From: Eledone cirrhosa
Taxonomy: Eukaryota
Assembly: GCA_964016885.1 (NCBI GenBank)
Contig: OZ024761.1
Location: 21,142,001 to 21,206,000, forward strand
Length of the DNA: 64,000 nucleotides
Reading direction: 5' to 3'
Shown: piece by piece, positions 15,336 to 56,100 of the stretch
Layout: the number at the start of each line of letters is the position of its first letter
How positions within the stretch are numbered: position 1 is the stretch's first letter
Notes under the pieces: generated by a model
What the model saw: the letters and a program-made list of their open reading frames with translations, nothing else
Databases searched by the model: none
Told to the model about the DNA's origin: nothing
Position numbers and translations under genes: made by a program

Positions 15336-16522
15336 ATATATGTATATATATATATATATATATATATATATATATATATATATATATATATATATATATA
15401 TATATATATATATATGCAAAAGTTTTATTTAAAATTGTTGGGTTACAACAAGTAAATATTTTATAACTGATATAAAGCACTCGACAAGTTTTTGGAGTAG
15501 ATATATATATATATATATATGTATGCATATGTGCTAATTATAGTATCATTTATAAAATGGGTGTCATATGTAGGCTGAAGAACTGGGGTCTGTCTCAGTA
15601 AACATCTTAAATCTTTGGGAAACAATTGAACCAACAATAAAATCATTTGGTGGAATTTTTTTTTTTTTTTCCTTCAGAATTTTTTTTTCTTCAGAATTTC
15701 TGATCAGAATTCGTAATATTTTGTCACTTATATTTTTTCATTTTCAATCAAATATCTTTGAAATTAAAACAAACAAAATATATTTAAAGATTTAAAAGAG
15801 AAAACTAATGAAACAATCATAAGGTAGGAAGAATCAGTATAGTTTGAAAGAGTTTTGCTACAGATGTAGAGTTCCAGCTTTGTGTACAGTCTGTCTATGT
15901 ATGTGTATGTGTGTGTATGTAAGTTTGTATGTGTATATGTGTGTGTCTGTATGTCTATATGTATGTATGTGTGTATATATATGTATGATGTATGTGTGTT
16001 TGTATATGCGTGTGTGTATGTATATATGTGTGTGTGTATGTGTGTATGTGTGTGTATGAATGTATGTATGTATGTATGTATCTGTGTATGCTTGTATGTA
16101 TGAATGTATGATGTGTGTTTGTATATGTATGTATTTATGTATGTGTGTGTGTATGTATGTAATGTATATATATGTATGCATGTATGTATGTATTTGTGCA
16201 TGTATGTATATATCTATCTATATATGTGTGTGTGTGTGTATGTATGTACATTTGTATGTACATGTATGTAATGTATATATATGTACATATATGTATATGT
16301 ATGCCATATGCCGATGAAGGATGCTAACAGCGGAGAAAATACTAGTGTTCTTCTAGTCCACTAAATCACAGACACACTCGTCACTCCCTTGCCACCATAA
16401 ATATAGTGAACAAATGATTGGTCAAATAGGAAACCAGTCTGTAGCCAGCAACGATTTACTTTACAACCTGCTATATATATATAATAAAGAAGAAATTAAA
16501 AGATGGTTAAAAAAGTTCCATA

Positions 16523-16592
16523 TATTTTATTATGCGCATTTCGAAAACAACATCATCCTGGGACAAAAATTGTGTTCTCATCAGATAAAATA
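16523..16592 (-). ncRNA. Type I hammerhead ribozyme motif (mirror copy in palindrome)
   Basis: Exact reverse complement of 16685-16754. Confidence 0.78.
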
Positions 16593-53100: not shown

Positions 53101-56100
53101 GTATTTATATATATATGTATATATATATATATATGTGTGTGTGTGTATATATATATATGTATATATATATACTCTTTTACTCTTTTACCTGTTTCAGCCA
53201 TCCGGCTGAGGCCATGCTGGGGCACCGCCCTTGGCTATGTATATATATATATATGTGTGTGTGTGTGTATATATATATATTGTATTATGTATATATTTAT
53301 TGTGAAGGCACATGGCTGAGTGGTTAAAGAATTGGATTCACAATCTTGAGATTGTGAGTTCGATTCCTGGACCGGGCGATGTGTTATGTCCTTGAGCAAG
53401 ACACTTTATTTCACGTTGCTCCTTCTACCTGGAGTTGCGACCGATAGATAGTATTAGCAATTGGAAAGACCAATGGAAACATTGTTCCCTCGGTCCGATT
53501 TGACGAAAGTCGATATATATGACTGTCGATATATATGTCTGTGTATATATATATATATATATATATTTGTGTGTATATATATATATTTTTTTTTTCATCA
53601 TCATCATATATATATTTATGTATATATATATATATATATATATATATATATATATATACACATAAACCCATGCTAGCGTGGAAGATAGACGTTAAACGAT
53701 GATGATGATGATATATAAATTTATATATATATATATTTATATGTATATATATATTTATGTGTATATATAACCAAGGATTAATATGGTTCATTGATTACTC
53801 AATGAATATAGTTTTACAATAGATTAAAAGCACTCTACAGTGAAGTTTTCTGGAGTTAATATTATTCAGAATATTAATAAATGAGGACATTCACATAATC
53901 AAAATATATGTTTTATTATATATATTTCAAAGGTACTGTGCTGTTTTTTCAGTACGTCCTCGTCAGATAAAATACATGAATTGATGTATGACATACCTCA
54001 ACTGTCTTGAGGGTTCAATTCCAGTATTGGCACATACATATACATACATATACATATATATATATACATATATACATATATATATATACATATATATATA
54101 TATATATATATATATATATATATATATATATTTTAATATTTAAAAAAGAATCACCAACTTACCTTCTCTCAAAACTTTACTTTCTTGGTCTCTGGTCAAC
54201 ATCATCCTCTCTTGCCAATAGTTGTGAGGTCTGTCAACGAGGGTCACACTATCAGAGAAGGCTTTTCGTACCCATCCTTCTATCTTGCTATTGTTGGCCT
54301 CTAACTCTGTTTCACCAAAATCATATTCTGCAGCAATCGATACAGCATCCAATGATGTAACGCCCGAGAATAACCTATCTCTCGATCTACTCTCATCATA
54401 ATCATCATCCATATCATCATCATCATCATCATCGTCATCATCATCATCATCATCGACAGCATTAATCATTTCTGCCATGCTAAGTCTGTTGACCTCCATT
54501 GGGACATTGTCTTGAATGTCGTCATCATCTCTCGTTAGGTCTTCTCCCTCTCCATCTTCATCTCTGTATCTGCTGCTTCTTCTATCTTTCATGCTACCCT
54601 TCCTACTAATAACACTGTCATCCTTTGTTTCCTCACCCCTTATGCTGTCTATGCTACTGTCATCTGTTCCGATAGCGTCAAGCCACTCCTTGATTTGTTC
54701 CATATCAACTTCGCTGCCATCTTCAACTATGCTACCTGTAGAAAGGAGAACACCATATTTAAACCTCCATACTTAAACCACCATATTTAAACCTCCATAT
54801 TTAAACCTCTATATATAAACCACCATACTTAAACCACCATACTTAAACCTCTATATATAAACCACCATACTTAAACCACCATATTTAAACCTCCATACTT
54901 AAACCACCATATTTAAACCTCCATATTTAAACCACCATATTTAAACCACCATATTTAAACCTCTATATATAAACCACCATACTTAAACCACCATACTTAA
55001 ACCTCTATATATAAACCACCATACTTAAACCACCATATTTAAACCTCCATATTTAAACCTCCATATTTAAAACCACCATATTTAAACCTCAATATACAAG
55101 CCACCATATTTAAACCTCCATATTAAACCACCATATTTAAACCTCCATACTTAAACCACCATATTTAAACCTCCATATTTAAACCACCATATTTAAACCT
55201 CTATATATAAACCACCATACTTAAACCACCATATTTAAACCTCCATATTTAAACCACCATATTTAAACCTCAATATACAAGCCACCATATTTAAACCACC
55301 ATATATAAACCACCATATTTAAACCTCCAATATAAATCACCATACTTAAACCACCATACTTAAACCACCATACTTAAACCACCATACTTAAACCACCATA
55401 CTTAAACCACCATACTTAAACCACCATACTTAAACCTCCATATTTAAACCTCCATATATAAACCACCATATATAAACCACCATATACAAGCCACCATATT
55501 TAAACAAAAGAGAAATGACACCAGAAAAATGATTAATTTACCTGTGTCTTTTCTAATTATAGCATTGCTAAGTACAAGTTCGTTCTGAAAGACAAACGAA
55601 GATCCCACATTTGTAATGAAGAAAACATTGGCCATACCAGCAAAGTGAGTATATTGTTAATGTACATGTGTGTGTGTTTGTGGTGTATATATATATATGT
55701 GTGTGTGTATATATATATATGTATGTGTGTTTGTTTGTGTGTGTGTATATATGTGTGTGTGTGTTTGTTTGTGTATGTGTGTGTCTTTTATACATGGTTT
55801 GGTTAGGGATGTTGAGTTGACTATTGTAAGGTTATGAGTTCAATTCCCAGCAGCACACTGTGTCCTTGAGCAAGACACTTTACTTCACATTGCTCCAGTC
55901 TACTCAGCCGGCAAGAATGTGTTGTGACTGCAATTCAAAAGGCCGACCTTGTCACAAACTGTGTCATGCTGAATCTCCCTGAGAATCATATTAAGGATAC
56001 ACATGTATGTGGAATACTCAGTCATGGATGTTAAATGGTGATGATGATGATGATGATGATGATGGCAACATACACCACCTGGTCCAGGAATTGAACCAAT

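What the first reader, a model, noticed from the sequence alone, without database searches (positions are those of the whole stretch)
16485..53976. At least eight type-I hammerhead ribozyme motifs from several non-coding element families in one window
Seen: complete stem I-CUGANGA-stem II-GAAA-stem III-UA-stem I topology at 16523(-), 16685(+), 19608(-), 25559(+), 30997(-), 31184(+), 36742(+) and 53907(-). Stem II sequences differ completely between copies while pairing and the core are retained. Stem III is either a 6-nt palindrome (tgcgca, tatata) or cc-nnn-gg. All have A at the cleavage position (AUA or GUA) rather than the common GUC. Established: Penelope-like elements and their non-autonomous derivatives (retrozyme-like) carry minimal type-I hammerheads with palindromic stem III that cleave as dimers. 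Inference: this genome hosts multiple (TA)n-associated, non-autonomous ribozyme retroelements mobilised by a Penelope-like RT/GIY-YIG; a remnant of one is at 52060-52880.
Basis: partly seen in the sequence, partly recalled or inferred. Interest (0 to 1): 0.85.

Follow-up and report, generated by a model that had tools for sequence, protein, structure and literature searches.

The report
Octopus Penelope-element stubs with hammerhead ribozymes
Seven of the eight motifs have the full hammerhead-ribozyme shape, but the eight sit in just six tiny insertions beside AT repeats that are likely cut-down ends of a known group of jumping genes (Hydra-type Penelope-like elements); most are predicted to fold poorly, and the new detail is a small hairpin predicted in their tails.

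Summary
The motifs are real: 7 of 8 pass a strict type-I hammerhead descriptor, against 0.003-0.03 per shuffled window; 36742 fails helix I. They are six insertions of two lineages, not eight independent elements. Two pairs are mirror-image arms (154/156 and 151/163 identical). The layout is head-to-head arms, a tail on one arm only, and (TA)n flanks, which is the published footprint of 5'-short Penelope-like insertions. It is not retrozyme-like: no same-strand motif lies within 1.6 kb of another. The 2506-2507 bp Hydra-clade elements of Craig 2021, one from octopus, share helix III (ACC-nnn-GGU), frequent A at the cleavage site and the tail motif (compared by eye). The 52060-52880 remnant is a GIY-YIG end of a different, Neptune/Nematis-type lineage with its own minimal hammerhead, so it is probably not the mobiliser. 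New detail: a covarying bulged tail hairpin shared by three families and one outside locus, and a third family whose 8 arms all stop in helix II. Cleavage and expression are untested; no autonomous parent was found. Verdict: new members of a known kind.

The parts
16478..16633 (-). Insertion A, tail-less inverted arm with hammerhead (C3 16584, cleavage A17 16531), ends in (TA)n
   Evidence: (154/156 identical to right arm)
16634..16799 (+). Insertion A, joint (16634-16643) and tailed arm with hammerhead 16685-16754 (C3 16693, A17 16746; G10.1-C11.1; palindromic helix III)
16799..16875 (+). Insertion A tail, opening with the bulged hairpin (16799-16826)
   Evidence: (repeat depth ends at 16875)
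19580..19677 (-). Insertion D, tail-less arm with hammerhead 19608-19668 (C3 19661, A17 19615; 11-bp helix II; ACC-ACU-GGU helix III)
19678..19725 (+). Insertion D, distal half of a family-2 tail in opposite orientation (inferred from likeness to the tail of E)
25445..25547 (-). Insertion E, short inverted arm (25516-25547) and tail with bulged hairpin (25485-25508)
   Evidence: (37/40)
25548..25656 (+). Insertion E, tail-less arm with hammerhead 25559-25626 (C3 25565, A17 25620); joint lies in the extension of helix I
30869..31120 (-). Insertion B, tailed arm (30958-31120, hammerhead 30997-31057, helix II decayed) and tail with bulged hairpin starting 30955
31123..31283 (+). Insertion B, tail-less inverted arm with hammerhead 31184-31244 (helix II decayed)
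   Evidence: (151/163)
36725..36897 (+). Insertion F, decayed family-2 copy (C3 36745, A17 36802; helix I broken); 5' end uncertain; antisense in a host intron
   Evidence: (76% to E)
53771..54030 (-). Insertion C, single arm with hammerhead 53909-53974 (C3 53966, A17 53917) and tail hairpin starting 53856; sense in a host intron
52066..52881 (-). Separate Neptune/Nematis-type PLE remnant: GIY-YIG C-terminus 52641-52850, minimal hammerhead core at 52361, tail 52066-52121, short inverted arm 52825-52881
29155..29450 (+). Second 3' end of the Neptune/Nematis-type family with minimal hammerhead core at 29202 (helix II intact, helices I and III not recoverable)
   Evidence: (82% to 52134-52404)
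11346..11626 (.). Two-armed stub of the same Neptune/Nematis-type family, no hammerhead retained
2262..2451 (.). Family 3 two-armed stub: hammerhead-like 3' halves (C-GAAA, palindromic helix III, GUC), joint in helix II, tail hairpin at 2330 (-)
   Evidence: (54/55)
25264..25447 (.). Family 3 two-armed stub, tail on + arm
30658..30862 (.). Family 3 two-armed stub, tail hairpin at 30741 (-)
41630..41783 (+). Family 3 single arm with tail, starts in loop II
57178..57239 (+). Family 3 single tail-less arm, starts in loop II
15417..15498 (-). Tail-only stub of family-1 type between (TA)n runs

Best explanation
The motifs sit in six short insertions beside (TA)n repeats that are likely the hammerhead-bearing terminal repeats (pLTR ends) of Hydra-type Penelope-like retrotransposons, left as 100-400 bp stubs because reverse transcription likely copied only the last stretch of the element's RNA. 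Shown: the arm-plus-tail layout, the mirror-image arms, the (TA)n neighbours, the repeat nature and the motif shapes. From published work: the element's GIY-YIG/RT protein nicks AT-rich DNA on both strands and starts cDNA at two sites that bracket the tail, and the transcript starts inside the pLTR. Inferred: each nick primes one arm (one with tail, one without); cDNA ends at a hairpin (hammerhead helix II or I) or at the 5' end of the RNA about 50-70 nt upstream of the core; the two cDNA ends join head to head; the bulged tail hairpin is the site the protein recognises. The templates were uncleaved, since whole hammerheads were copied. Most genomic copies are predicted to be inert: paired arms would bury the core, and B, C and F misfold or are decayed. 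D and E are the best candidates to cut as monomers, A as a dimer.
For: Arms 154/156 (A), 151/163 (B), 37/40 (E) identical, tail on one arm only; same layout in family 3 and the Neptune-type family. Craig 2021 describes inverted 5'-truncated copies, a one-sided tail and (TA)n targeting by Hydra elements; Cervera 2014 reports opposite-strand hammerhead pairs 100-700 bp apart and solo motifs from truncated PLEs; Frangieh 2024 shows two RT start sites bracketing the tail and extension of both strands. Family-2 helix III matches Hydra-1_oBim (acca-a-tggt); 11 of 25 Hydra families have A17. The 12-letter tail word of E occurs twice in 584,131 characters of that supplement, both in Hydra consensi. 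DNA runs laid on A: depth only over 16468-16875 for this element, two kinds of 3' end, and head-to-head joints with arm starts from -38 to +113 relative to C3. L034, next to animal GPCR genes, shows the same tail hairpin with head-to-head hammerhead halves.
Against: No RT or endonuclease sequence adjoins any of the eight motifs; the 400 bp upstream of F is a host exon. No autonomous parent was found, and no genome was available. The Hydra link rests on by-eye comparison with six published consensi. Family 1 has a 6-nt palindromic helix III and AUA, unlike any of the 25 listed Hydra hammerheads; its exact tail word was absent from the supplement (0 hits) and resembles only Hydra-1_Crog. The five family-1 arms in the window all start 49-71 nt upstream of C3, which also fits a fixed-length non-autonomous RNA. 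The joints rest on one contig each with 22-37 letters on the short side, and 7 of 14 could be native helix II. 40 of 41 metagenome loci with the tail word showed no such anatomy.
Confidence: 0.68

Rival explanations
1. Non-autonomous mini-elements: short RNAs made of upstream hairpin, hammerhead and tail are transcribed from their own source loci and are copied in trans by a Hydra-type PLE protein.
For: Five of five family-1 arms start 49-71 nt upstream of C3 in three diverged insertions. None of the 8 motifs has coding sequence attached. Very high summed depth on the element. Arkhipova 2013 reports that pLTR sequences alone suffice in trans.
Against: Other copies start at varied points, -38 to +113. 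The review states that the transcript start lies in the upstream pLTR, so run-off copies from ordinary transcripts would give the same clustering. Hydra 3' UTRs leave room for these starts without reaching the ORF.
Confidence: 0.22
2. Animal non-LTR retrozymes: head-to-tail repeats that self-cleave to unit-length and circular RNA, here seen as monomers.
For: Type-I hammerheads, low GC, short non-coding units; solo retrozyme monomers exist.
Against: No head-to-tail hammerhead repeat: nearest same-strand motif 1605 nt or more away, none inside a tandem array listed (150 of 178 rows shown). Whole hammerheads with flanks on both sides of the cleavage site, inverted arms and one-sided tails are PLE features.
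Confidence: 0.04
3. MITE-like DNA elements or chance hairpins in AT-rich DNA that mimic hammerheads.
For: Near-perfect inverted arms and TA flanks; helix I of family 1 is all A/U; Rfam gives no hammerhead hit.
Against: 7 hits against at most 1 in 900 shuffles; single-armed copies, variable joints and one-sided tails; core unchanged while helix II varies.
Confidence: 0.03
4. Host-adopted ribozymes that cut the pre-mRNA of the EFCAB5-like gene.
For: C lies sense in an intron, and B lies about 1 kb past the last matched coding exon on the gene's strand.
Against: C and B are predicted to misfold (monomer fold probability 5e-7 and below 1e-5), and B's core is buried by its mirror arm; F is antisense. 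No sign of orthologous conservation was tested.
Confidence: 0.03

Closest known systems
Hydra clade of Penelope-like elements (Craig et al. 2021, PMC8557442), including Hydra-1_Obim from Octopus bimaculoides
   Same: (TA)n targeting, canonical type-I hammerhead about 100 nt from the 3' end, helix III AC-n5-GU with 1-3 nt loop (family 2), frequent A17, tail words as in Hydra-1/2_Ajap, Hydra-2_Amil and (loosely) Hydra-1_Crog; inverted 5'-truncated copy noted for Penelope-13_HM.
   Different: No ORF here; sequences are not Hydra-1_Obim itself; helix II is much longer (26-38 nt against about 12-24); family 1 has a 6-nt palindromic helix III with AUA. The paper passages and supplement parts I read do not describe the tail hairpin.
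Dispersed and opposite-strand hammerheads of truncated PLEs (Cervera and de la Pena 2014, PMC4209133)
   Same: Solo motifs, pairs 100-700 bp apart on opposite strands, high variability within a genome, palindromic helix III. The cores at 29202 and 52361 have that paper's extra base after A9 and G10.1-C11.1.
   Different: The eight motifs have a real helix III (2-3 bp plus palindromic loop) rather than the minimal form, and 6 of 8 lack G10.1-C11.1.
PLE insertion architecture (Arkhipova et al. 2013, PMC3846280; Frangieh et al. 2024, PMC11167929)
   Same: Inverted pLTR, one-sided tail, palindromes at the inverted joint, two RT start sites, uncleaved RNA as template.
   Different: Tails here are about 70-90 nt, not 30-40; no target duplication can be read in (TA)n; joints of family 3 and L034 fall in hammerhead helix II.
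Animal non-LTR retrozymes (Cervera and de la Pena 2020, PMC7229834; Li et al. 2026, 10.64898/2026.07.22.740005)
   Same: Type-I hammerhead, short non-coding unit, proposed PLE origin.
   Different: No head-to-tail repeats; inverted arms and tails instead; circular RNA untested.
Neptune/Nematis-type PLEs (for the 52066-52881 remnant only)
   Same: C-terminal GIY-YIG end; relatives carry a cysteine-rich linker and YVDD-type RT upstream.
   Different: Only 67 residues remain; clade not fixed by a tree.

Membership tests
Type-I hammerhead ribozyme | Core CUGANGA, GAAA and UH in type-I order with three helices | tested here: met
   7 of 8 pass; shuffles give at most 1; F fails helix I
Type-I hammerhead ribozyme | Purine-pyrimidine pair G10.1-C11.1 | tested here: not met
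   2 of 8 (both arms of A); others G-U x3, U-A, A-A, A-U. Published Hydra hammerheads also vary here
Type-I hammerhead ribozyme | Core conserved while helices covary across copies | tested here: inconclusive
   None of 40 shown variant rows falls in core or helix I, many fall in helix II, and A10.1 with U11.1 appears in one subfamily; 125 rows were not shown and variants are not phased
Type-I hammerhead ribozyme | Rfam hammerhead model at gathering score | tested here: not met
   0 hammerhead hits among 3 matches; none in the 150 rows shown of 531 by E-value
Type-I hammerhead ribozyme | Self-cleavage | not testable with these tools
   folding predictions only
Endonuclease-bearing PLE insertion | Head-to-head inverted 5'-short copy with tail on one arm | tested here: met
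   A, B, E; D inferred; C and F single-armed
Endonuclease-bearing PLE insertion | RT plus GIY-YIG ORF joined to the pLTR | tested here: not met
   None beside the eight motifs; PLE proteins hit only 52620-52850. Expected for stubs, but it leaves the parent unseen
Hydra clade | Insertion in (TA)n | tested here: met
   10 of 12 ends within 10 nt of (TA)3+, background 8.9%; ends were set by eye, so partly circular; independently seen for family A in reads
Hydra clade | Canonical hammerhead with AC...GU helix III near the 3' end | tested here: inconclusive
   met by family 2 (D, E, F), not by family 1
Hydra clade | Protein signatures (RWK, DKT, CxCX5C linker, no CCHH) and RT phylogeny | not testable with these tools
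   no coding sequence attached; no genome held
Non-LTR retrozyme | Head-to-tail repeats, each with a hammerhead | tested here: not met
   nearest same-strand motif 1605-11388 nt away
Non-LTR retrozyme | Abundant unit-length and circular RNA | not testable with these tools
   no RNA run was available to lay

The most novel reading that the evidence does not exclude
Hydra-type Penelope elements share a 25-33 nt bulged tail hairpin (RCUC, variable stem-loop, 2-nt bulge, GAGY, RCU), conserved from cnidarians and sea cucumbers to octopus, that is the handle for the RT/endonuclease; and the hammerhead's helix II serves a non-catalytic role as the place where cDNA stops and the two mirror-image arms are joined. 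The ribozyme fold would then shape the insertion product, and this octopod genome would be filled with stubs that descriptor searches miss because they keep only half a hammerhead.
Probability: 0.3. Interest if true: 0.55.

Novelty: new member of a known kind. Interest (0 to 1): 0.3.

Why it matters
As it stands it adds undescribed Hydra-like PLE end families from an octopod and shows how dense such stubs can be (about 15 PLE-type stubs in 64 kb). It also corrects a likely mis-filing as retrozymes. If the tail hairpin is the protein's recognition site, it gives a short testable cis-element for a clade with no biochemical work, and a marker for classifying ORF-less stubs. If helix II sets the joint, it bears on the open question of why PLEs keep hammerheads that are not needed for insertion in vitro.

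Tried and rejected
No genome was held, so no genome-wide count, source-element search or covariance model search was possible. Rfam: no hammerhead at gathering score; the E-value list was filled by microsatellite and hairpin matches to miRNA models. The family-1 hammerhead pattern found 0 stretches in viral contigs and 0 in metagenome contigs. The tail-word scan gave 41 loci; 0 of 41 had a full core within 200 nt upstream, 1 (L034) had the PLE anatomy, 1 (L021) an inner hairpin only, the rest look like chance matches. No RNA holder was listed, so nothing is said on expression. The pile of read ends at 16737 in run X12 comes from a RAD-seq DNA library and is not a cleavage signal. The word-index protein search with the 67-residue remnant found nothing and Pfam missed it; the full HMMER scan did find relatives. 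The idea that the 400 bp upstream of F is PLE coding sequence was rejected: it is a host exon. One tail candidate (25189-) did not fit the hairpin register and was dropped from the pair counts (1 of 11). The helix III duplex value for D used the wrong GAAA and was redone. MAFFT alignments A3 and A4 did not hold the helices in register, so pairs were counted by coordinates instead. Earlier-finding look-ups by sequence and by the first word set were blank. Claim of absence in print rests on searches of an open-access library; Repbase, subscription papers, Lunse 2017 (not read) and most of the 59 parts of the Craig supplement were not seen.
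Full report
Observation. The eighth, at 36742, keeps core, GAAA and helix III, but helix I breaks after three pairs. All eight have A at position 17. Rfam reports no hammerhead at gathering score. The motifs are therefore real and far above chance, but they are not eight independent elements.

Setting. 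The window holds an EFCAB5-like gene on the minus strand from 63547 to 32064, whose best relatives are Octopus vulgaris and O. bimaculoides proteins at 62-63% identity, so the host is likely an octopod. It is dense in microsatellites. No whole genome was held.

Anatomy. The eight motifs belong to six insertions. A (16478-16875) and B (30869-31283) are head-to-head mirror pairs with arms 154/156 and 151/163 identical; E has a short mirror arm (37/40). In each, one arm ends directly in (TA)n and the other runs on into a tail of about 70-90 nt. C and F are single arms. D is one arm joined to the far half of a tail in the opposite orientation (inferred from its likeness to E's tail). A, B and C form family 1 (palindromic 6-nt helix III, AUA); D, E and F form family 2 (CC-nnn-GG, GUA). 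Ten of 12 ends lie within 10 nt of a (TA)3+ run against 8.9% of background positions, though I set the ends by eye. No motif has a same-strand neighbour closer than 1605 nt.

Other copies. Four public DNA runs were laid on A (2304, 52 and 3 contigs, 3854 reads). Depth is zero over 16300-16467 and very high over 16468-16875; it is not a copy number, but it bounds a repeat. Loose ends show both 3' forms: straight into TA repeats, or through a TA-rich linker into the tail. Of 21 joints 15 were shown; 14 are head-to-head. Seven lie wholly in helix II and may be that hairpin itself; the other seven have arm starts from -38 to +113 relative to C3. Each rests on one contig with a short side. None of the 40 variant rows shown falls in the core or helix I, many fall in helix II, most copies have U11.1, and one subfamily seems to pair it with A10.1; 125 rows were not shown.

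What is known. Craig et al. 2021 (PMC8557442; passages, section 11, supplement parts 2, 52, 53 and term searches) describe inverted 5'-truncated copies and a one-sided tail as PLE features, and define the Hydra clade with (TA)n targeting and canonical hammerheads. Cervera and de la Pena 2014 (PMC4209133; first half) report solo motifs and opposite-strand pairs from truncated PLEs. Arkhipova et al. 2013 (PMC3846280; passages) report palindromes at inverted joints and favour self-priming. Frangieh et al. 2024 (PMC11167929; first half) show nicking and extension of both strands, two RT starts that bracket the tail, and no need for hammerhead cleavage. A review (PMC6765202; passages) places the transcript start in the upstream pLTR. 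Retrozymes are head-to-tail repeats (PMC7229834, passages; 10.64898/2026.07.22.740005, first two of five parts). An O. vulgaris repeat annotation lists 31 recently active Penelope-like families and never mentions ribozymes in its main text (PMC13282606, passages).

Which clade. In the supplement's table of 25 Hydra families, helix III is AC-n5/6-GU, position 17 is A in 11, U in 10 and C in 4, and the octopus element Hydra-1_oBim has acca-a-tggt. This matches family 2 and removes the surprise of A17. By eye, E's tail is nearly the same as the tail of Hydra-2_Ajap and the 5' start of Hydra-1_Ajap; the 12-letter word occurs only at those two places in the 584,131-character file (line breaks can hide matches). 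Family 1 is less secure: its tail resembles Hydra-1_Crog's, but its exact word scored 0 and its helix III is unlike the 25 listed. No Hydra ORF was seen, so this is 'works like and probably is', not a passed membership test.

The remnant. 52641-52841(-) encodes 67 residues that match the end of GIY-YIG domains in 19 library proteins (best E 2e-9; one of the 19 looks unrelated); relatives have a cysteine linker and an RT upstream. This is Neptune/Nematis-like, not Hydra-like. It has its own minimal hammerhead core (52361-, also 29202+), its own tail without the hairpin below, and its own mirror arm. It shows PLE activity in the window but is probably not the parent of the eight motifs.

New details. 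(1) The tails open with a bulged hairpin: RCUC, a variable stem-loop, a 2-nt bulge, GAGY, RCU. A descriptor built from these copies finds 7 in the window against 0.07 in 200 shuffles (post hoc). In 10 of 11 candidates that fit the register, six of the first seven positions are always paired, with compensatory swaps at positions 1, 5, 6 and 7; the ten stem from about four lineages. (2) A third family (five stubs) carries the same hairpin and the 3' half of a hammerhead with GUC; none of its 8 arms reaches CUGANGA, and its three joints use helix II. (3) One of 41 metagenome loci with the tail word, L034, flanked by animal GPCR genes, has the same hairpin and head-to-head halves joined at helix II. 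I did not find the hairpin described in seven literature searches, with the limits given under Tried and rejected.

Mechanism. Most likely the element's protein binds the tail region, nicks (TA)n on both strands and primes two cDNAs, one at the tail end and one at the TA-rich site before the tail. Each cDNA ends at a hairpin or at the RNA's 5' end, and the ends join head to head. The two-start step is published for another clade; the rest is inferred. The five family-1 arms start 49-71 nt upstream of C3, which fits run-off at a transcript start or a fixed short RNA; I cannot separate these.

Activity. Folding predicts the monomer fold at probability 0.12 for E, 0.024 for D, 1e-4 for A and 1e-5 or less for B, C, F; A's helix III self-duplex is -10.5 kcal/mol, B's and C's -3.2 (no tertiary contacts modelled). 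With both arms transcribed, the core of A and B is paired with probability above 0.99 on either strand. Cleavage and expression are untested.

Verdict. Real motifs, known kind of element, partly wrong first interpretation. Earlier notes of this scan report like stubs in other genomes; they are unchecked and served only as leads. Interest 0.3.

Noticed in passing
window 32064-63547 (-): EFCAB5-like host gene, 15 exon matches to an Octopus vulgaris protein; C and the Neptune-type remnant lie sense in one intron.
   Followed up: partly
window 3752-6671 (+): Exons with SH3 domains (Pfam SH3_2 E 1.7e-9 in 6162-6671), recalled as RIMS-binding-protein-like.
   Followed up: no
window 25140-25262 and 41042-41099: Possible fourth family of inverted stubs with a GAAA-bearing half; the tail-like word at 25160-25190 did not fit the hairpin register.
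   Followed up: partly
window 49378-49569: 192-bp inverted repeat (85% arms) without TA flanks, tail or hammerhead; may be a MITE.
   Followed up: no
window 5843-5900, 15264-15319, 58077-58139: tRNA-like heads at Rfam gathering score, likely tRNA-derived SINEs; related copies at 25669-25881, 42048-42263, 53302-53514.
   Followed up: no
window 16634-16670, 31123-31150, 53990-54020: A small hairpin with different sequence in A, B and C lies just inside the 5' ends of family-1 arms; seen by eye and in a loose-end consensus, not tested.
   Followed up: partly
window 16478-16799 and 30958-31283: Mirror arms would give 155-160 bp double-stranded RNA if transcribed, a possible source of small RNAs or editing substrates.
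   Followed up: no
window 34789-36332 and 10406-10601, 14555-14704: The 72-bp satellite shares 67 bp with a dispersed repeat, suggesting it grew from a mobile element end.
   Followed up: no
L034:1740-1960: Hydra-like inverted stub between two GPCR genes in a metagenome contig, with a short duplicated piece at the joint.
   Followed up: partly
L007:630-734 and L027:822-926; L011, L016: 20-bp and 31-bp tandem repeats that matched the tail word by chance.
   Followed up: no
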